40,398 bases of DNA from a virus. Where the stretch lies: UHGV virus genome UHGV-0331319; one strand, given 5' to 3'. The notes below the pieces were generated by a model, which worked only from the letters and a program-made list of their open reading frames with translations, was not told where the DNA came from and ran no database searches. Every line of letters starts with the position of its first letter. Positions within the stretch are counted from its first letter, which is position 1. Below are positions 9,386 to 40,070 of the stretch, piece by piece. The translations under genes and the position numbers were made by a program.

Positions 9386-9820
9386 ATGGGAGAAATCGAA
9401 CAAATAAAACGTCTTGTTGCGTATTACAAAGGAAATTATGCTACAAATGACCCTTTTGAAATTGCCGACCGCATAGGAGTCCTCTATCAGATAGGTAATT
9501 GTAAGCATGAGGGCTGTTACATGTTTCTGAAAAACCATCGGTATATATTTCTCAGCAACAAATTAAAAGGGATTGAACTAAAAGTTGTTATGGCTCACGA
9601 ATTAGCCCATGCCATTTTTGACAGAAAAGAAAACTGTTATTTTATTCGCAATAAAACTTTGTTGCTTAATTCTAAAACAGAACGTAGAGCAAATCGGTTC
9701 GCGGCGTATCTTTTGATTGATGATGATCTGTTAGAGTATTATGAGAATTACACAAAAGAACAGTTTTGCGACTGTACGGGATTCCCTAAAGAGTTAATTG
9801 AACTGAGGTTAAGACAATGA
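9386..9820 (+). CDS. ImmA/IrrE-family zinc metallopeptidase (anti-repressor protease)
   Basis: HEXXH motif (MAHELAHAIFD); ATG after AGGTGA; paired with the upstream XRE-HTH gene. Confidence 0.75.
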   Translation: MGEIEQIKRLVAYYKGNYATNDPFEIADRIGVLYQIGNCKHEGCYMFLKNHRYIFLSNKLKGIELKVVMAHELAHAIFDRKENCYFIRNKTLLLNSKTERRANRFAAYLLIDDDLLEYYENYTKEQFCDCTGFPKELIELRLRQ

Positions 9821-10887
9821 ACATTTTTACTTTTTTCAAGAACAGATGCAATAGCAATAAAAAAGACAATGTATTATCAGAGACATCAACCATTGATAGC
9901 TTTAATAATATTATAAAGCATAACTTGGAAGAACCTCTAGGTATCATTACAAACTATTCTCAAGACGGCTATGTATTAAGTAACATGGAGAATATTTTAG
10001 TTCCTCAAGCCATGGAAGAATGCCAAACAGATTTTATAAACACTCTGATTAAATTTAATTCTCCAGCTACGCTAAAATTAGTGCTTTTTGATAGTAGTTC
10101 TATTGTTTATAATATTTACAATCCAATTCCGCATATGTTAATTCCAGTTATGACGAACACAGATCTATGGGCTCGTGTGCTTGCTTTTGTATGCTCAGAA
10201 ATCCAAGATAGAACATACAAATTTTTAGAGGTGGAAGCCAAAAATGTTGATAACTATAATAAAATAATCCATTCTGCAGGTGGAGAACAGTTACCCAAAA
10301 TTGTAATTATTGTGAACGAAATTCATGATTTACCAAATACTGCCGAAGATAGTTTATTGCAACTGCTTTTGAAATCTAACCGTGTAGGAATATATTTAGT
10401 TTTATTTTCTAAATTTAGCATTAAAAATCTAGCACTTGGTATAAAAATGGATCTATTAAAAGTATACAGCGGCAGCCAGTTAAATCAGGTATTTAATTTG
10501 ACTAATCAATTATCCGATAATAAGCAAATTAATCTTTCATATGACAACATGGATGGTCATCAGTTCGAGTATTTTTGTGCAACTCTTCTCAAAAAAAATG
10601 GTTTTGTAAACGTCTCTGTTACCCAAGGAAGTGGCGACCACGGTATTGATATTCTAGCAGAGAAAGATGGAATAACTTATGCTATCCAATGTAAATGTTA
10701 CCAATCAGATATAGGAAATTCAGCTATACAGGAAGCTCATTCGGGAAAAGGCATATATAAAAGAGATATTGCCGTTGTTATGACTAACAGATATTTTACT
10801 AAGCAAGCTATAAATGATGCCAATGCTCTTGGCGTAAAATTATGGGATCGAACACAATTAGAAAAGTTTGTAAACAACTCTAAATAA
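9817..10887 (+). CDS. Mrr-type PD-(D/E)xK restriction-endonuclease-domain protein with an N-terminal degenerate FtsK/SpoIIIE-like domain, 356 aa
   Basis: C-terminal GHQFEYFCATLLKKNGF...GSGDHGIDILAEKDG...AIQCKCYQ matches the Mrr catalytic-domain pattern; central LPKIVIIVNEIHDL...LLQLLLKSNRVGIYLVLFSKFS resembles the Walker-B/arginine-finger/ATQRP blocks of FtsK-like ATPases, but no Walker A is visible; strongly AT-rich relative to neighbouring genes. Confidence 0.65.
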   Translation: MNIFTFFKNRCNSNKKDNVLSETSTIDSFNNIIKHNLEEPLGIITNYSQDGYVLSNMENILVPQAMEECQTDFINTLIKFNSPATLKLVLFDSSSIVYNIYNPIPHMLIPVMTNTDLWARVLAFVCSEIQDRTYKFLEVEAKNVDNYNKIIHSAGGEQLPKIVIIVNEIHDLPNTAEDSLLQLLLKSNRVGIYLVLFSKFSIKNLALGIKMDLLKVYSGSQLNQVFNLTNQLSDNKQINLSYDNMDGHQFEYFCATLLKKNGFVNVSVTQGSGDHGIDILAEKDGITYAIQCKCYQSDIGNSAIQEAHSGKGIYKRDIAVVMTNRYFTKQAINDANALGVKLWDRTQLEKFVNNSK

Positions 10888-11065: not shown

Positions 11066-12271
11066 ATGGGACAACTGAGAACACGCAAACGCGGATCCAC
11101 CTGGGAATGGTCCTTTGAAGGCGCCAGGATCAATGGTAAGCGCAACCCGATCAGCCAGGGAGGATATCGCACCAAAGGTGACGCGATCACTGCCGGCACC
11201 CAGGCTAAAGCCGAATACGATAACGCTGGGCGAAGGTTTACACCCTCAGACATCAGTGTTTCGGATTATTTGGATTATTGGTACGAAAATTACGTCAAAA
11301 CAAACCTGGCACACAACACCCAGGTAAGCTACGAGCGTTTACTTCGCGTCCACCTTAAACCTACTTTTGGGAAATACCGGCTTTCAGCGTTGGAAACCGA
11401 TGTTATTCAGAAATGGGTGGACGGCATGAAGCGCCAAGGCTATTCCAAGAGCATGGTCAAAAATACGCTGTCCTGCCTGTCTGGCGCCCTGGGGTACGCC
11501 GTATACCCCTGTAGATATATCAAGTATAATCCCTGCGATTATGCCAAACTCCCCAAAATTGCTGTGTCTGAGGAGACCAAGGCGCACACGGAATATATCT
11601 GTGGCAAAGAGGACTGGACTGCTATCATTGACCGGTTCGGCCCAGACAGCAATTTCTACCTTCCACTTATGACCGGGTATCACTGTGGTACCCGGCTTGG
11701 GGAGACCTATGGCATTGATCTGCTGCATGATGTGGACCTTGACAACCACGCCATAACCATCCGGCATCAGTTGTCCAATGAGGGCGGGAAATGGTACTAT
11801 AGGCCACCAAAATATAATTCCGTACGGACAATAAAGATCCTGCCAGAGTATGAAAGCATCCTGAGGGCTGAAATCCATGAACGCAAAAAGAACATGCTGC
11901 GGTATGGCCAGTACTTTACCCGATCCTACCAAATGGATGATGGTCTAATCTTCCAGGCTCCCGCCAATGTCCAGATTACAGGAACGGAGATTATGCCGAT
12001 CAGCACTAAGGAGAATGGCGAGTTGCTAACCCCCTACTCTTTTAAATACTGTGCCAAGGTCATCCATGAGGAATTGGAAAACCCATTATTCCACAGCCAC
12101 TGCCTACGCCACACACACGGCACGCTGTTGGCAGAGAATGGAGCCCAGCCCAAAACAGTCATGGAACGCCTGGGCCACAAGGACATCAAGACTACCATGA
12201 ACCGTTATGTATTCAACACGGAAAAGATGCAAAACAATGCCATGGTAATTCTGGCAGATGCCATATCGTAG
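11066..12271 (+). CDS. tyrosine-type site-specific integrase, 401 aa
   Basis: C-terminal HCLRHTHGTLLAENG ... LGHKDIKTTMNRYVF (R-H-R-Y catalytic signature); N-terminal arm-binding-like domain; GGAGGAATGATAT-ATG start. Confidence 0.85.
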   Translation: MGQLRTRKRGSTWEWSFEGARINGKRNPISQGGYRTKGDAITAGTQAKAEYDNAGRRFTPSDISVSDYLDYWYENYVKTNLAHNTQVSYERLLRVHLKPTFGKYRLSALETDVIQKWVDGMKRQGYSKSMVKNTLSCLSGALGYAVYPCRYIKYNPCDYAKLPKIAVSEETKAHTEYICGKEDWTAIIDRFGPDSNFYLPLMTGYHCGTRLGETYGIDLLHDVDLDNHAITIRHQLSNEGGKWYYRPPKYNSVRTIKILPEYESILRAEIHERKKNMLRYGQYFTRSYQMDDGLIFQAPANVQITGTEIMPISTKENGELLTPYSFKYCAKVIHEELENPLFHSHCLRHTHGTLLAENGAQPKTVMERLGHKDIKTTMNRYVFNTEKMQNNAMVILADAIS

Positions 12272-12618
12272 CGATCTTGCCTACCGTTTAAAAAAGGGTA
12301 GGCAAGGGGTAGGCAAGGCAACCACTCAGAGCGGATAAATGGCCCGTCACCCCTTGATTTTACGTGATAATTTCACAACAGTTTCCACATGATTCGTTTA
12401 TTGATATCCAACCACGTACTAGCATATTTTTGCGCATTTTGCCATAAAACACCCCCTGTTTTAAAGGATTTAAGAGAGACTTTTATACATATTGGCACAT
12501 ACACACACATGTTGGCATATATTAACACATGCGCAGGGTAGACAAATGGTAGACATTGCCTACCAAATAGCGAAAGGCGGGCCCGGTCACACATCACCGG
12601 TACCCGCCTCGTTACATT
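12272..12618. other. candidate attP: about 350 bp non-coding region with six arm-type repeats GGTAG(G/A)CA
   Basis: direct copies at 12297-12307, 12308-12318, 12537-12545 and 12548-12555; inverted copies at 12276-12285 and 12557-12564; A-tract and TTGGCA(C/T)AT repeats between them; immediately 3' of int. Confidence 0.45.
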
Positions 12619-12834
12619 TTAGTTTGACCGTGGACATGGACGCCTATTCCATCTCCCGTCTTCAAATCCTACTCTATAACCATCATTAAAACCTTCCCGA
12701 TATGCCCAACGCCTCTCATTGGCGCACGGGTCCCAATTGTTACCCCAGTTTCCGCCCCAGTTATTTCCTCCACCAGAACTGAACCACCACGGGCAGCAAC
12801 AGCAGCATCTACAGCAACATCTACAGCAACACAT
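12619..12834 (-). CDS. extremely Cys-rich small protein, 71 aa (MCCCRCCCRCCCCC... followed by a Gly/Asn/Trp-rich repeat)
   Basis: strong AGGAGGAG RBS 6 nt before ATG; 16 Cys in total, 11 in the first 14 residues; GGGNNWGGNWGNNW repeat. Confidence 0.55.
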   Translation of the reverse strand: MCCCRCCCRCCCCCPWWFSSGGGNNWGGNWGNNWDPCANERRWAYREGFNDGYRVGFEDGRWNRRPCPRSN

Positions 12835-12893
12835 TCTTTTCTCCTCCTCTAATATAGTTTGTACTATATTATATGGGACAGATAGACAAGGTG

Positions 12894-13040
12894 TTACTGC
12901 TTCCTTTCTTCCTGTATCCTCCTCCAGATTTCCTCAAACTCACCCGGATCCGGCTTCGGAATGACATCATCCGGGACGTGATCCCTGGCCCATTCATACT
13001 CTTTCAACAGTTCTTCATCAGATTCTTTCAGCTTCTCCAT
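12894..13040 (-). CDS. small acidic protein, 48 aa, upstream partner of the Cys-rich gene
   Basis: AGGATGGGAG RBS + ATG; MEKLKESDEELLKEYEWARDHVPDDVIPKPDPGEFEEIWRRIQEERKQ; same strand, about 60 bp upstream of the Cys-rich gene; below the ORF-track size cut-off. Confidence 0.4.
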   Translation of the reverse strand: MEKLKESDEELLKEYEWARDHVPDDVIPKPDPGEFEEIWRRIQEERKQ

Positions 13041-13107
13041 ATCTCCCATCCTTTCTTTTCTGTTTTATTTTAATAATATCACAGATTGGGGTCTAAAAAC
13101 AGAACCT

Positions 13108-13135
13108 TTGGTTATATTAATCCTACATCTATAAT
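13108..13135 (+). promoter_or_regulatory. sigma-A-like promoter (TTGGTT, 16-nt spacer, TATAAT) driving the plus-strand HTH gene
   Basis: -35 at 13108-13113, -10 at 13130-13135, start codon at 13163. Confidence 0.4.
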
Positions 13136-13162
13136 TGGATTATAAAGGTCAAGGGTGATGAA

Positions 13163-13369
13163 ATGATTAAATATGACAAGCTGTGGAAGACCATGAAAGA
13201 TAAAGGGATCACCCAGTATATGCTGGTGAAAGAGTATAATATCAGTAAATCATTGCTGCACAGATTAAGAAATAACCAAGGGGTAAACATGAATACCATT
13301 GATACCCTGTGTGACATACTGGATTGCGATATTGAAGATATAGCAACGCATTACAACAGCGAGGAATAA
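13163..13369 (+). CDS. XRE-family HTH transcriptional regulator, 68 aa
   Basis: ITQYMLVKEYNISKSLLHRLRNNQGVNMNTIDTLCDIL; AAGGGTGATGAA-ATG start; opposite orientation to the flanking genes. Confidence 0.6.
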   Translation: MIKYDKLWKTMKDKGITQYMLVKEYNISKSLLHRLRNNQGVNMNTIDTLCDILDCDIEDIATHYNSEE

Positions 13370-13390
13370 TCCCCGCTGTCTTTTTTATTA
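13352..13390. terminator. weak bidirectional terminator candidate between the convergent HTH and endolysin genes
   Basis: cagcg ... cgctg 5-bp stem followed by tctttttta. Confidence 0.3.
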
Positions 13391-14230
13391 CTCTCCCAGC
13401 CCCGGCCACCGCAGCGCCCCGTCCTGATCGGGTGTCAACACCACCGGATCCATGGACAACTTGCCGTCCTGGTCCAGATAATACCACTTTCCGCCACTGG
13501 CCTGCAGCCCCTTGACCATGGCTCCATCAGCCCCCAGGTAGTACCAGTCACCCTTGTACTGATACCAGGTGTTGATCACCATGCGACCGGCGCCGTCAAA
13601 CCAGTACCACTTACCGTCTGTATCCAGGTACCAGCTGTTGCGCACACAATCTCCTGTGTTGCCCAGGTAAAAGCTTCGGGATCCATCTTCATTCTGTCTC
13701 CATCCTGATAATTTAGGTTCCTCCGGCTCCGTCACTGCATCATCCTGTATGTATCGTTTTACAGCCACCAGGCCCTTACGCCAGCCCCCAGACGCCCAGG
13801 AGTTATACCGGCTCTTGCAGTAGGCCACCAGATCTTTGTAGGACGGTCTTCCGCTGCCATGTCCGCAGATAATACCATCTCCACAGTACATCTCCACATG
13901 GCCGATCCGCTTTGGCCTGCTGGCATCCGTACCGGCAAACAGCAGCATGTCCCCTGGTCGTAACCGGGACGTGTCAGGGATGCCCTGGGCTATATCCGCA
14001 TCCACTGTGGTCAGTTTGGTAGAGTTGTACATGCCTGCGGTGTTTGTGATCCCGAAGCCTTGCCCTGCCTGCTGATAAGCGTAGCAGATGGAGCTGCTGC
14101 AATCACTGTAATAGTTGCCGTCCTTGTATGCCTTATAGCAGTAATCCCGTAAGGACTGGCTGTATATGTTGCGGCCTATGATCTCTGCATACTTGTCGAT
14201 CACGGCCTGTCTCCTTAATAATGCTGTCAT
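13388..14230 (-). CDS. endolysin: NlpC/P60-type (Cys/His) peptidase domain plus C-terminal choline-binding-type cell-wall-binding repeats
   Basis: catalytic Cys (YSDCSSSICYAY) and His (IGHVEMY) blocks; C-terminal aromatic repeats GKWYWFDGAGRMV / GDWYYLGADGAMV / GKWYYLDQDGKL. Confidence 0.8.
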   Translation of the reverse strand: MTALLRRQAVIDKYAEIIGRNIYSQSLRDYCYKAYKDGNYYSDCSSSICYAYQQAGQGFGITNTAGMYNSTKLTTVDADIAQGIPDTSRLRPGDMLLFAGTDASRPKRIGHVEMYCGDGIICGHGSGRPSYKDLVAYCKSRYNSWASGGWRKGLVAVKRYIQDDAVTEPEEPKLSGWRQNEDGSRSFYLGNTGDCVRNSWYLDTDGKWYWFDGAGRMVINTWYQYKGDWYYLGADGAMVKGLQASGGKWYYLDQDGKLSMDPVVLTPDQDGALRWPGLGE

Positions 14231-18207: not shown

Positions 18208-18366
18208 ATACCTCACCTTTCCTCTTCTTTGCCGTATACAATGGTTTAAATACGGCCTGTGTTATCATAAATTACTAACACTTTCATCTTACATTTTCCT
18301 TTCTTCATGATATAATGTGACTATGTAGGTCCCTTTGATTGGGATCTATTTTTCATCTCCTTATAA

Positions 18367-18397
18367 TTGGGGTTACAGGAAGTTGGGAAGGGTATGT
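18367..18397. repeat. 31-bp perfect inverted repeat, copy L: TTGGGGTTACAGGAAGTTGGGAAGGGTATGT
   Basis: identical to the reverse complement of 19287-19317. Confidence 0.9.
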
Positions 18398-18821
18398 ACC
18401 CGAATCAAAAGACCTGTATTATAAAGGGACCAATTCTGGCAATTTAAAATTCGGCACAGCCTTTACGTTTGTCTCGGGCGGATCTGTTATTTTTGATACG
18501 GCTCAAATGACATGCAAGGCTGATAACGGAGCGGCATTTAGATGCTGTTACTTATATCCCAGCGCATCACATAATTTAACTCCTTACAGTGCATTAAAGG
18601 TAGACTTTCGGGCTGGGACTGGAAAACTTACTGCCGACTCCAAGTTATACTACGGCACCAGTCTATCCGCAGTTACCACAGATTCGGTGGGGGGATCCTT
18701 AAGTGGCAATACCTTATCATTTAATATCAGTGCCATTAATGCAACGCGATATATCGCGCTTTATTTATACTGTAGTGGTGCTGGGGTTACATTTTATATT
18801 GACCGGGTCTATTTTGCATAG
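18367..18821 (+). CDS. silent alternative tail-fibre C-terminal cassette (variant B), inverted relative to the expressed fibre gene
   Basis: starts inside the 31-bp inverted repeat and encodes GVTGSWEGYV...DLYYKG..., the same junction peptide as residues about 107-125 of the minus-strand fibre protein, then a divergent roughly 130-aa domain; no ATG or RBS of its own at the junction. Confidence 0.55.
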
Positions 18822-18835
18822 CTATAAACTGGACG

Positions 18836-19585
18836 TTACGCTACTCTAATCCTGAAAACATTCCCGGTGAATGGTGTCCTGCTCCATGATGGATCACTGT
18901 CACTTCCATGAGCATCGTTATAATATTCGACCGATAAATAAATCTTTGGGGCAAAAGATCCTGCCAATGCGGTAATATCCGTAACAAGGTCAAGCGTTGA
19001 CTTCAGACCCATGTTGGTCCTAGATGTTTTTATCTTTGTTGACCCATTCCATAGCTCGATGACTGCAATGTAATAGTCAGCATCAGTATAATAATCAACA
19101 CCCGCTAAGTTGAAATTAACAATCAGCTTAGTGTAACCACTCCATGTAAATGCTTTGCCAGCGGTAAATTGGGGATAGGAGTATTTGGTTATTTGAATCC
19201 TGTCTGATCCAAAATACACAGCTGCATTATTGCCTGTGAAGCTATACGCATTATTCCCCTTGTAATATAAATCGGTGGCCGCAGCGACATACCCTTCCCA
19301 ACTTCCTGTAACCCCAAATATCGGCACACCCTTTTTGATATTGGCCGCTTTCAGATTGGGATCCCCTTTGATCGTTTGTGCACCGGTCAAAAACTGGTTG
19401 GCAGCAATGCTCTGGTTCGCCGTTCCTGGTGTATATGTAGCCGCTGCTTTTTCAGTCATGGTGCCAGTTAAGGGATTCCCATTTTTGTCTACGATCACTT
19501 TACCTTTTCTTATATCTGCTGCTGCGGCGGTCACTACATCAAGATCAACTCCGCCTCCGCCACAAGGTATCAAAATATCACTCAT
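18836..19585 (-). CDS. tail fibre / receptor-binding protein, 249 aa, with an exchangeable C-terminal domain (variant A currently in frame)
   Basis: constant N-terminus (about 1-106) then GVTGSWEGYV junction encoded by the inverted repeat, then a variable domain ending at 18836. Confidence 0.65.
   Translation of the reverse strand: MSDILIPCGGGGVDLDVVTAAAADIRKGKVIVDKNGNPLTGTMTEKAAATYTPGTANQSIAANQFLTGAQTIKGDPNLKAANIKKGVPIFGVTGSWEGYVAAATDLYYKGNNAYSFTGNNAAVYFGSDRIQITKYSYPQFTAGKAFTWSGYTKLIVNFNLAGVDYYTDADYYIAVIELWNGSTKIKTSRTNMGLKSTLDLVTDITALAGSFAPKIYLSVEYYNDAHGSDSDPSWSRTPFTGNVFRIRVA
19287..19317. repeat. 31-bp perfect inverted repeat, copy R
   Basis: reverse complement equals 18367-18397; lies inside the fibre gene at the constant/variable junction. 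Confidence 0.9.
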
Positions 19586-38054: not shown

Positions 38055-38128
38055 TAGCGAAGGCAGGATTTGAACCTGCGACCTCCGGGTTATGGGCCCG
38101 GCGAGCTGCCAGACTGCTCTACCTCGTA
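38055..38128 (-). tRNA. tRNA-Met (CAU) with initiator-like features
   Basis: hand-folded cloverleaf: D stem GAGC/GCTC; anticodon stem CCGGG/CCCGG (three G-C pairs at 29-31:39-41); loop CCCAUAA; 5-nt variable loop; T arm GCAGG-TTCAAAT-CCTGC; acceptor 5/7 paired with a 1:72 mismatch; 74 nt; no encoded CCA. Confidence 0.6.
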
Positions 38129-39373: not shown

Positions 39374-39631
39374 TCAATCAGGCACCTCCTCTATTGACCG
39401 CCACGCCACAACCTGGTCAAACGGTATCCTCCTGGCAGTATCCCGGTAATACCATTCCTCATCATCTGTTACAAAAAAACCTATTACCTCGTCCCCGCTC
39501 GCAAGCTGTATCTGGACATCTTCCGAACATCTCTTATAATGCGGAGACCTTAATGGCACATCTTCATCTATTGGAATCCATTCCTCCATGTTTCGCCATT
39601 CCTTTCGTATCGCAAATATCAGTTTAGGCAA
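39374..39631 (-). CDS. hypothetical protein, 85 aa
   Basis: ORF; start overlaps the upstream gene. Confidence 0.45.
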   Translation of the reverse strand: MPKLIFAIRKEWRNMEEWIPIDEDVPLRSPHYKRCSEDVQIQLASGDEVIGFFVTDDEEWYYRDTARRIPFDQVVAWRSIEEVPD

Positions 39632-40070
39632 GTAAGCGATACCACCGAGTTTTCATTTCAGCGGGTATCTCCTGCCCCTTGTTTCGCTCTCCTGTCCAGT
39701 GTGTTCCGCCAGCTTCTCCGTCACACAAAAAGCCGCTGGCCTTCAAACTGGTTCCCGGTTCACTCTGTAAAATATAGGTGATGATCTTCCGGTACCCCAT
39801 ATCCTTTGCGATCCGGCAGCATGCCCCATATAACATGCTGCAAGCATTGTATGTACCGTCAGTACATAATCTATTAATTTCACAGGTCAGACCATCATCC
39901 AGGTATCGGCTCACTGGCCTACCACATACGGCACAGCCTATTATCTGTTCTCCCTCATACAGCCCGACCGAAAACTTATGGCCGACTGTAGCATTATGAT
40001 GGCGGTGATACAAATTTATAAAGTCACTGGCCTGTCTGAATGTGATTGGTTTAATTTCCGTATCCCTCAC
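39624..40070 (-). CDS. hypothetical Cys/His-rich protein, 148 aa
   Basis: YHRHHNATVGHKFSVGLYEGEQIIGCAVCGRP...EINRLCT; no confident family assignment. Confidence 0.45.
   Translation of the reverse strand: MRDTEIKPITFRQASDFINLYHRHHNATVGHKFSVGLYEGEQIIGCAVCGRPVSRYLDDGLTCEINRLCTDGTYNACSMLYGACCRIAKDMGYRKIITYILQSEPGTSLKASGFLCDGEAGGTHWTGERNKGQEIPAEMKTRWYRLLA

What the first reader, a model, noticed from the sequence alone, without database searches (positions are those of the whole stretch)
12619..13369. attP-proximal moron: 71-aa poly-cysteine/Gly-Asn-Trp-repeat protein with an acidic 48-aa partner and a divergent HTH regulator
A gene with a strong RBS (AGGAGGAG) encodes MCCCRCCCRCCCCC PWWFSSGGGNNWGGNWGNNW.... 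It has 11 Cys in the first 14 residues and 16 in total, then a GNW repeat and an Arg/aromatic C-terminus. About 60 bp upstream on the same strand is a 48-aa highly acidic ORF that falls below the ORF-track cut-off. Facing them is a lone XRE-HTH gene with a near-consensus promoter. All three sit between the endolysin and attP, the usual cargo position. I cannot assign the Cys-rich protein to any family. Possibilities include a metal- or redox-active peptide, a modified-peptide precursor (a radical-SAM gene is present elsewhere in the phage), a bacteriocin-like product, or a spore/cell-envelope-associated protein.
Basis: seen in the sequence. Interest (0 to 1): 0.65.

Follow-up and report, generated by a model that had tools for sequence, protein, structure and literature searches.

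The report
Mobile poly-cysteine gene with sporulation promoter
A small, real but mostly unannotated poly-cysteine protein gene sits at the end of a gut Clostridia prophage behind a promoter that matches the late-sporulation (sigma-K) type, so the phage may be adding a cross-linkable protein to its host's spores.

Summary
The 71-aa ORF (12619-12834, minus) is a real gene. I found 95 loci encoding 45 distinct proteins, all in frame. Each has a hypervariable Cys-rich N-terminus, with (CCCR)n, (NS)n, (CGNN)n or (CCCHR)n repeats, and a conserved C-terminal Gx3G domain under purifying selection (pN/pS about 0.2). It matches no Pfam, NCBIfam, PHROG, PADLOC or PDB family, and gene callers usually skip it.

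It travels as a self-contained promoter-gene-terminator cassette. It sits at prophage ends about 240 bp from attP, at an ICE end, beside an IS110, and at chromosomal sites in human-gut Lachnospiraceae.

The main new result concerns the promoter. The only conserved upstream DNA is GTAACA-N16-CATATAAT. This scores the maximum possible on a matrix built from TSS-mapped Clostridioides difficile sigma-K promoters. It is the top hit in the window by 5 bits and is kept in 92 of 93 loci.

My best explanation (confidence 0.45) is a protein made late in the mother cell that becomes a thiol-rich, cross-linkable spore-surface component, carried as a phage moron.

The acidic partner is real but occurs only in the phage-borne clade (20/20; 0/70 elsewhere). 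The HTH gene is interchangeable. RiPP, toxin-antitoxin, attenuator and non-coding readings are not supported.

The parts
12619..12834 (-). Poly-Cys protein gene (71 aa). It has an N-terminal (CCCR)2-C5 tract, then PWWF, then G/N/W repeats. The conserved C-terminal domain is WDPCANERRWAYREGFNDGYRVGFEDGRWNRRPCPRSN, with Gly/Ala every fourth residue.
   Evidence: 95 loci give 45 alleles of 61 to about 105 aa, all in frame; the C-terminal 32 codons show pS 0.8-0.97 against pN 0.15-0.22.
12841..12848 (-). Shine-Dalgarno sequence AGGAGGAG, 6 nt upstream of the ATG.
   Evidence: It is kept as AGGAGG or GGAGG in all clades.
12868..12897 (-). Conserved promoter GTAACA-N16-CATATAAT of the sigma-K (late mother-cell) type. 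The -35 hexamer contains the TAA stop codon of the acidic ORF. The inferred transcription start is near 12862.
   Evidence: Searches give the C. difficile sigma-K promoter list; 19.68 bits, the matrix maximum, with the next hit in the window at 14.83; kept in 92 of 93 loci; sigma-K 13.4-19.7 bits against sigma-E 7.6-11.5 bits; it also reads as a 10/12 sigma-70-type site with an 18-nt spacer.
12850..12871 (.). Perfect 9-bp inverted repeat TAATATAGT-ACAA-ACTATATTA overlapping the -10 box and the start site. It may be an operator. It occurs only in clade A.
   Evidence: The Rfam miRNA-like hit only reflects this hairpin.
12565..12610 (-). Intrinsic terminator directly after the stop codon: a GC-rich hairpin followed by UUUCGCUAUUU.
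   Evidence: -30.8 kcal/mol, z = -4.0. It is conserved in L001 and L003.
12894..13040 (-). Acidic 48-aa ORF (51 aa if started at 13049). Its conserved core is EELLKEYEWA..H.PD..IP...P.P.EFE.IWRRIQEE.KQ.
   Evidence: It always precedes the Cys gene in clade A1 (20/20) and is absent from the other clades. RefSeq names it a hypothetical protein of Enterocloster citroniae.
13163..13369 (+). Divergent XRE-type HTH_26 regulator gene (68 aa). It is not a conserved partner of the cassette.
   Evidence: E=4.8e-18. It is replaced by a 74-aa HTH_3 gene or by Spo0A_C plus a 67-aa ORF in other phages carrying the same cassette.
12276..12565 (.). attP region. The crossover is near 12380. Arm-type repeats GGTAGGCAAG (12276-12320) and GGTAGACAA x2 (12535-12555) flank it.
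   Evidence: homology with the integrated copy L002 ends at about 12380. One search gives the repeats.
13388..14230 (-). Endolysin (NlpC/P60 plus choline-binding repeats). It marks the end of the phage late region upstream of the moron block.
11066..12271 (+). Tyrosine integrase on the other side of attP.

Best explanation
The 71-aa ORF is a real gene of a previously undescribed family of small poly-cysteine proteins. It moves among gut Lachnospiraceae as a self-contained cassette of promoter, RBS, gene and terminator. Here it is cargo at the attP-proximal end of an Enterocloster citroniae prophage.

Shown:
- The gene is under purifying selection in its C-terminal Gx3G domain.
- Its N-terminal Cys-rich repeat tract changes length constantly.
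- The only conserved upstream DNA is a GTAACA-N16-CATAnnnT element. This is a consensus-grade match to experimentally mapped sigma-K promoters of C. difficile.

Inferred:
- In a sporulating lysogen the gene is transcribed by sigma-K RNA polymerase late in the mother cell.
- The protein self-associates through its amphipathic Gly/aromatic helix.
- It is deposited in the outer spore layers (coat or exosporium).
- Its thiol-dense tail stays reduced in the anaerobic mother cell. It forms disulfide or metal cross-links once the spore is released.
- This changes spore-surface properties such as oxidant tolerance, rigidity or adhesion.
- Because the prophage travels inside that spore, the moron would pay for itself through spore survival and transmission.

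The acidic 48-aa protein is an accessory found only in the phage-borne lineage. It may be a chaperone or charge-masking partner for the basic protein (pI 8.5). The neighbouring HTH gene is an independent, replaceable module.
For: The gene is real:
- 95 loci give 45 alleles, all in frame.
- In the C-terminal domain synonymous sites are near saturation (pS 0.8-0.97) while pN is 0.15-0.22.
- The RBS is conserved.

It is a cassette:
- Homology between contexts begins exactly at AGTAACAC and ends after the terminator.
- It is found in at least 4 phage backgrounds, at an ICE end, beside an IS110 and at chromosomal sites.

The promoter:
- Saujet et al. [quoted passage not shown] Their Table S7 shows GTAACA(C) at cotE, cotA, CD1067, CD1891 and feoA, mostly with 16-nt spacing.
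- A matrix built from those 25 promoters gives this site 19.68 bits, the maximum possible. The next hit in the 40-kb window, both strands, scores 14.83.
- 92 of 93 loci keep GT[AC]ACA-16/17-CATA[TC][AT][AG]T at 28-35 nt from the ATG.
- Of 102 hits at or above 15.5 bits in 586 kb of loci, 89 lie at this gene.
- The sigma-K score exceeds the sigma-E score in every clade.
- True sigma-K promoters themselves score 7-9 of 12 on the sigma-70 count, so the 9-10/12 sigma-70 reading does not argue against sigma-K.

Analogy and hosts:
- Cys-rich, repeat-bearing, self-assembling, redox-sensitive proteins are known outer-spore-layer components. One example is CdeC, with CCRQGKGK and NPC repeats and 37 Cys (PMC7677010).
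- The named hosts are Enterocloster, Hungatella and Anaerostipes. These are endospore-forming Clostridia by my own knowledge.
Against: - There are no expression or localisation data.
- The promoter assignment rests on similarity to C. difficile promoters, not on promoters mapped in Lachnospiraceae.
- The same bases read as a usable sigma-A promoter (GTAACA-18-TATAAT, 10/12).
- There is no sequence homology to any known coat or exosporium family.
- The structure prediction was uninformative (pLDDT 49.5).
- No neighbouring gene in any context is a recognisable sporulation structural gene.
- Spore formation is rarely observed in some Enterocloster species (my own knowledge).
Confidence: 0.45

Rival explanations
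1. A thiol-rich metal- or redox-buffering protein, metallothionein-like in function. It would be made in vegetative lysogens from a sigma-A reading of the same promoter and would confer metal or oxidant tolerance as classical lysogenic conversion.
For: - Cys makes up 13-27% of the protein.
- The promoter also reads as a 10/12 sigma-70-type site.
- Its place as mobile-element cargo fits resistance traits.
- In clade B it lies divergent from a MerR-family regulator gene.
Against: - There is no match to any metallothionein family.
- It has 7 Trp plus several Phe and Tyr, and runs of 3-8 consecutive Cys. Metallothioneins instead show CxC/CxxC spacing and few aromatic residues (my own knowledge).
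- The -35 hexamer lacks two of the three key TTG bases in all 93 loci, and none has drifted toward TTGACA.
- The C of CATA, which a sigma-A promoter does not need, is kept in 92 of 93 loci.
- The adjacent regulators differ between contexts while the promoter stays the same.
Confidence: 0.2
2. A two-gene toxin-antitoxin or exclusion module. The basic Cys-rich protein would be the toxin or effector and the acidic upstream protein its neutraliser.
For: - The gene order is acidic first, basic second, with opposite charges (pI 4.5 and 8.5).
- The pair is strictly linked in clade A1, 20/20 loci.
- One UniRef entry labels an acidic-ORF relative 'Addiction module protein'.
Against: - 70 loci of the other clades carry the Cys gene with no acidic ORF.
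- The Cys gene has its own promoter, which begins at the acidic ORF's stop codon.
- Neither protein matches NCBIfam or PADLOC.
- The UniRef label is an automatic name on a single member.
Confidence: 0.08
3. A precursor of a modified peptide (RiPP) or a bacteriocin-like secreted product.
Against: - No modifying enzyme, protease or transporter lies next to the cassette in any of at least five contexts.
- The variable Cys region is N-terminal, starting at residue 2, and the conserved part is C-terminal. This is the reverse of the usual leader-core layout (my own knowledge).
- There is no signal peptide or double-glycine leader.
- I found no radical-SAM domain in the 10 ORFs scanned.
Confidence: 0.04
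4. A cysteine-sensing leader ORF (attenuator), or non-coding low-complexity DNA.
For: Polycysteine short ORFs act as cysteine-responsive attenuators in mycobacteria (bioRxiv 10.1101/834739).
Against: - A strong terminator follows directly, and here nothing lies downstream on that strand but attP and a convergent integrase.
- The downstream genes differ in every context.
- The ORF is 61 to about 105 aa, with a C-terminal domain under purifying selection.
Confidence: 0.02

Closest known systems
Cysteine-rich outer-spore-layer morphogenetic proteins (C. difficile CdeC and CdeM; Bacillus CotY/CotZ/ExsY)
   Same: - They are Cys-dense and carry short Cys-containing repeats (CdeC: CCRQGKGK, NPC; PMC7677010).
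- Their self-assembly is redox-sensitive.
- They are made late in the mother cell. The C. difficile sigma-K regulon includes coat and exosporium genes (PMC3789822).
- This gene has a consensus sigma-K-type promoter.
   Different: - There is no detectable sequence homology.
- This protein is much smaller: 61-105 aa, against 405 aa for CdeC by my own knowledge.
- It has uninterrupted poly-Cys runs and a Gx3G C-terminal domain.
- It is carried on phages, ICEs and IS-flanked sites rather than being a core sporulation gene.
- Its spore localisation is untested.
Phage morons / lysogenic-conversion cassettes, including sporulation-related prophage cargo such as sspC on SPbeta (my own knowledge)
   Same: - It is an autonomous promoter-gene-terminator unit between the lysis genes and attP.
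- It is present in unrelated phage backbones at near-100% nucleotide identity while its flanks differ.
   Different: - The promoter is of the mother-cell sigma-K type rather than a housekeeping type.
- The same cassette also sits outside phages.
Yae1/Lto1 deca-GX3 motif (Pfam PF09811 Yae1_N) and other Gx3G helix-packing repeats
   Same: The C-terminal AYREGFNDGYRVGFEDGR has a small residue every fourth position followed by an aromatic residue. The weak Pfam hit falls exactly on this stretch. In Yae1/Lto1 the motif mediates protein-protein association (my own knowledge).
   Different: - It has only 4-5 repeats, not about 10.
- The score is 15.3 bits against a 27.5-bit cutoff (E=0.017).
- It is bacterial or viral, not eukaryotic.
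- Weak hits to secreted bacterial proteins with repeated YR.GY..G...DGR motifs (P0019, P0020, P0022) suggest a generic motif rather than homology.
Polycysteine leader ORFs (mycobacterial cysteine-responsive attenuators)
   Same: Both have runs of consecutive Cys codons at the very start of an ORF.
   Different: Here there is a conserved 38-aa C-terminal domain, the gene's own terminator and no downstream operon.

Membership tests
Phage moron | Own promoter and own terminator, separate from the phage operons | tested here: met
   The promoter is at 12868-12897. The terminator hairpin folds at -30.8 kcal/mol, z = -4.0.
Phage moron | Present or absent, or swapped, between related phages, and located at a module boundary or genome end | tested here: met
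   It lies between the endolysin and attP. The same cassette occurs in at least 4 phage backbones with different neighbours.
Sigma-K (late mother-cell) regulon | Promoter with -35 AC (GTAACA-like), a 15-17 nt spacer and a CATAnnnT -10 box | tested here: met
   It scores 19.68 bits, the maximum of a matrix built from 25 TSS-mapped C. difficile sigma-K promoters. It is the top hit in the window and is conserved in 92/93 loci.
Sigma-K (late mother-cell) regulon | Transcription depends on sigK during sporulation | not testable with these tools
   This needs RNA-seq or a reporter in wild-type and sigK-mutant sporulating lysogens.
Cys-rich spore coat / exosporium proteins (CdeC, CdeM, CotY/Z) | Sequence homology to a known coat or exosporium family | tested here: not met
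   There is no Pfam, NCBIfam or PHROG match. Only its own family appears among 1.84 billion representatives. There is no PDB match.
Cys-rich spore coat / exosporium proteins (CdeC, CdeM, CotY/Z) | Physical presence in the outer spore layers, with disulfide-dependent assembly | not testable with these tools
   This needs spore proteomics or fusion-protein localisation.
Metallothionein | Match to a metallothionein family; CxC/CxxC/CC spacing with few aromatic residues | tested here: not met
   There is no Pfam match. The protein has 7 Trp plus Phe and Tyr, and poly-Cys runs of 3-8.
RiPP precursor | A modifying enzyme, protease or transporter encoded next to the precursor | tested here: not met
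   None is present in the prophage, ICE, IS or chromosomal contexts.
Type II toxin-antitoxin pair | The two genes are inherited together, and the toxin is never found without its antitoxin | tested here: not met
   The acidic ORF is present in 20/20 clade A1 loci but in 0 of 70 loci of clades A2, A3, B and C. One further locus, of clade A-other, also has it.
Polycysteine leader-peptide attenuator | A short ORF upstream of, and co-transcribed with, a regulated operon; the peptide sequence beyond the Cys run is unconstrained | tested here: not met
   A terminator follows directly. The downstream genes differ or are convergent. The C-terminal domain is under purifying selection.
Yae1_N (deca-GX3) | Score above the Pfam gathering threshold, with about ten GX3 repeats | tested here: not met
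   It scores 15.3 bits against a 27.5-bit cutoff, with 4-5 repeats.
Anti-phage defence protein | Match to a PADLOC model | tested here: not met
   The Cys protein and the acidic ORF have no hits.

The most novel reading that the evidence does not exclude
Temperate phages and ICEs of gut Clostridia spread a sigma-K-driven, length-hypervariable poly-cysteine protein that is built into the host's spore surface. This would be lysogenic conversion of the spore rather than of the vegetative cell. It would alter the oxygen or oxidant tolerance, adhesion or germination of the very particle in which the prophage is transmitted between hosts.
Probability: 0.35. Interest if true: 0.8.

Novelty: new variant of a known kind. 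Interest (0 to 1): 0.62.

Why it matters
Spores are how many strict anaerobes of the human gut survive oxygen and pass between people. Their surface proteins are known in detail only for C. difficile and Bacillus. If mobile elements trade a spore-surface protein, spore properties would become horizontally transferable and strain-variable, and phages would gain a direct stake in spore fitness.

The family is also a clear annotation blind spot. Gene callers skip it and assemblers break inside it. It is nearly absent from protein databases holding billions of sequences, yet it occurs in many human-gut metagenomes.

The hypothesis can be tested directly with one reporter fusion and one spore proteome.

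Tried and rejected
- Nucleotide search of the 1.1-kb region against GenBank phages found no match.
- tblastn of the C-terminal domain against phages and plasmids found no match.
- Pfam, NCBIfam, PHROGs and PADLOC gave no family for the Cys protein or the acidic ORF. The only hit was a sub-threshold Yae1_N match.
- A PDB profile search found nothing.
- phmmer of the C-terminal 46 aa against 1.84 billion representatives returned only P0001, an adapter chimera (P0002), a frameshifted copy (P0021), and repeat-driven or generic Gx3G hits.
- AlphaFold2 gave pLDDT 49.5, which is unusable, so I ran no fold search.
- Rfam returned only spurious miRNA hits on the promoter palindrome.
- tRNA scans of related loci found no tRNA att site.
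- Identifying the clade B host through a neighbouring NAD-kinase gene failed. The nearest named relative is a Coprococcus MAG at 65% identity.
- The apparent 42-bp duplication at the gene's 3' end in L002 is a scaffold gap of N's, not biology.
- I rejected the idea that a phage-specific late promoter class explains the motif. No other site in the window scores close to it, and the cassette also occurs outside phages.

Full report
**Observation**

The window carries a 71-aa ORF at 12619-12834 on the minus strand. Its translation is MCCCRCCCRCCCCCPWWFSSGGGNNWGGNWGNNWDPCANERRWAYREGFNDGYRVGFEDGRWNRRPCPRSN. An AGGAGGAG Shine-Dalgarno sequence lies 6 nt before the ATG.

- Eleven of the first 14 residues are Cys.
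- An acidic ORF ends 59 bp upstream on the same strand. It is 48 aa from its well-spaced second ATG, with pI 4.5.
- A 68-aa HTH_26 gene is transcribed divergently from that ORF (Pfam E=4.8e-18).
- The block lies between an NlpC/P60 + choline-binding endolysin and a tyrosine integrase.

An integrated copy of the same phage is 99.98% identical to the window. It is locus L002, in assembly GCA_003433945.1. It loses homology at about window 12380. Arm-type direct repeats flank that point. So the window shows the joined attP form, and the Cys gene ends about 240 bp from the crossover. The exact acidic ORF and the HTH protein are RefSeq or GenBank proteins of Enterocloster citroniae.

**Is the gene real?**

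Yes. Scans of genomes, viral contigs and metagenomes gave about 100 loci. Looking up the acidic ORF's relatives added more.

- The 95 complete copies encode 45 different proteins of 61 to about 105 aa, all in frame.
- The proteins share one architecture. It begins Met-Cys-Cys, followed by a Cys-rich low-complexity tract whose repeat type and number vary: (CCCR)n, (CCR)n, (CCCHR)n, (NS)n or (CGNN)n.
- Next comes a PWW(C/F) or Trp/Gly/Asn/Asp-rich linker.
- Last is a conserved C-terminal domain, WDPC..ERR.AYR.GFNDGY.VGFEDGR.N.RP.
- Between clades, the 32 C-terminal codons have near-saturated synonymous divergence (pS 0.8-0.97) but pN of only 0.15-0.22.

Gene callers missed the ORF in 11 of 12 loci retrieved through the acidic ORF. 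Two assemblies have N-gaps inside it. A search of 1.84 billion representative proteins returned only one intact relative.

**What travels together**

Alignment of the upstream regions from nine contexts shows that homology starts abruptly at AGTAACAC, 62-70 nt before the ATG. It ends after a strong terminator hairpin (-30.8 kcal/mol, z = -4.0). The unit is therefore promoter, RBS, gene and terminator.

It is found in these places:
- at the attP-proximal end of at least four different prophage backbones;
- at the end of a conjugative element next to a VirD4-like gene;
- beside an IS110 transposase;
- at chromosomal sites in Hungatella hathewayi and Enterocloster aldenensis, after a two-component system;
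- in an unnamed Lachnospiraceae-like lineage, between a MerR/GyrI-like regulator and a MATE transporter.

The acidic ORF is a real conserved gene. However, it accompanies the cassette only in the phage-borne clade A1 (20/20) and in none of 70 loci of clades A2, A3, B and C. The divergent regulator is HTH_26 here. Elsewhere it is a 74-aa HTH_3 protein, or a Spo0A_C protein plus a 67-aa ORF. So it is not a dedicated partner.

**The promoter**

The conserved element reads GTAACAC-CTTGTCTATCTGTCC-CATATAAT. The generic sigma-70 scan scores it 10/12 with an 18-nt spacer. It also matches what Saujet et al. 2013 (PMC3789822) describe for C. difficile sigma-K promoters, namely '-10 box (CATATAAT) and -35 box (AC)'. 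Their Table S7 of TSS-mapped sigma-K promoters shows GTAACA or GTAACAC at cotE, cotA, CD1067, CD1891, CD2144, CD3613 and feoA, usually 16 nt from CATA.

I seeded a two-block matrix only with the published AC / CATAnnnT statement and built it from the 25 listed promoters. The results were:
- The site at 12897-12868 (-) scores 19.68 bits, the maximum the matrix allows. The next best of about 240,000 position-spacer combinations in the window scores 14.83.
- Across 93 loci with enough upstream sequence, 92 keep GT[AC]ACA-16/17-CATA[TC][AT][AG]T at 28-35 nt from the ATG.
- The variable positions are the ones the sigma-K matrix leaves free.
- The G and the AC of the -35 hexamer and the C of CATA do not vary across those 92 loci.
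- In 586 kb of related loci, 89 of 102 hits at or above 15.5 bits are at this gene. In each locus it is the outlier.
- A sigma-E matrix built the same way scores 7.6-11.5 bits, against 13.4-19.7 bits for sigma-K.
- Genuine sigma-K promoters themselves reach 7-9 of 12 on the sigma-70 count. The sigma-70 reading is therefore what a sigma-K promoter would give anyway.

Two caveats apply. The matrix comes from C. difficile, not from Lachnospiraceae. Nothing here measures transcription.

**Mechanism**

I combine three lines of evidence:
- a late mother-cell promoter type;
- a small, basic, low-complexity, Cys-dense protein with rapidly varying repeat number;
- a C-terminal amphipathic Gx3G/aromatic stretch of the kind that mediates helix-helix association. 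The weak Yae1_N hit (E=0.017) falls exactly on this stretch.

From these I infer that the protein is made in the mother cell late in sporulation. I infer that it self-associates and is laid down in the coat or exosporium. There its thiols would cross-link on exposure to oxygen or metal.

Cys-rich, repeat-bearing, redox-sensitive, self-assembling proteins such as CdeC are established outer-layer morphogenetic proteins of C. difficile spores (PMC7677010). The prophage is inherited inside the spore, so a moron that improves spore survival benefits the phage.

All steps from transcription onward are inference, and I put this explanation at 0.45.

**Rivals**

- A vegetative metallothionein-like protein (0.2) is not excluded. 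The abundant aromatic residues, the consecutive-Cys runs, the absence of any family match and the conservation pattern of the promoter all count against it.
- A toxin-antitoxin pair (0.08) fails because most family members lack the acidic gene.
- A RiPP or bacteriocin precursor (0.04) fails on context and on domain order.
- A polycysteine attenuator of the mycobacterial kind or non-coding DNA (0.02) fails on the terminator, on the variable downstream genes and on purifying selection.

**Unexplained**

- A perfect 9-bp palindrome (12850-12871) overlaps the -10 box in clade A only.
- A conserved TTGTC(T/C)A lies in the promoter spacer. Its bottom strand reads GACAA, which is reminiscent of a SpoIIID core from memory (untested).
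- The role of the acidic protein is unknown.

**Verdict**

The finding is a real, essentially unannotated family. It is a new variant of a known kind: Cys-rich sporulation-stage structural proteins, or phage morons. It has an unusual and testable link between mobile elements and spore formation.

Noticed in passing
window 18363-19321: A 959-bp segment bounded by 72-nt inverted repeats (76% complementary; 18363-18434 and 19250-19321) is inverted in the integrated copy L002 relative to the window. ORFs 18339-18821 (+) and 18836-19585 (-) would exchange C-termini. This looks like a tail-fibre or host-range switch of the Mu G / P1 C type. No invertase was identified. The repeat ends also match another phage, L011.
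   Followed up: partly
window 9817-10887 (+): A 356-aa protein next to the integrase has an FtsK/SpoIIIE-like ATPase and an Mrr_cat nuclease domain. PADLOC hits fall on the Mrr-like nuclease part of ZorD (4e-21) and on PDC-S02. It is a candidate prophage-encoded defence gene.
   Followed up: partly
L002 8445-8460; L014 4250-4480: Assemblies contain runs of N inside the poly-Cys gene. Gene callers left the ORF uncalled in 11 of 12 loci retrieved via the acidic ORF. The family is under-represented in protein databases for technical reasons.
   Followed up: yes
window 12850-12871 and 12876-12891: A perfect palindrome TAATATAGT-ACAA-ACTATATTA overlaps the -10 box and start site (clade A only). A conserved TTGTC(T/C)A lies in the promoter spacer in all clades. 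Either could be a regulator binding site. Neither is assigned.
   Followed up: partly
L006 5331-5666 (-); L010 4929-5270 (-); L020-L025 3162-3503 (-): A stand-alone Spo0A_C-domain protein gene (111-113 aa; Pfam PF08769 in the precomputed calls) lies upstream of and divergent from the cassette in 21 loci. These are both phage and chromosomal. A link to sporulation control was not examined.
   Followed up: no
L001 10261-10527 (-); L014-L019: A DUF6809 gene (88 aa) lies directly downstream of the cassette in one prophage type. A related 88-aa ORF in L010 (1251-1517, -) ends in a similar GF.DGF..G motif (GFIDGFRLG).
   Followed up: no
window 39624-40070 (-); window 38055-38128 (-): There is a Mom-family protein gene (Pfam E=1.7e-7) and a phage-borne tRNA-Met gene.
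   Followed up: no
window 12487-12536: Three degenerate 20-nt direct repeats (ACATATTGGCACATACACAC-like) lie in the attP arm next to the GGTAGACAA repeats. They are probably integrase or accessory-factor sites. The second-best sigma-K matrix hit in the window (14.8 bits, + strand) falls here and is probably chance.
   Followed up: no
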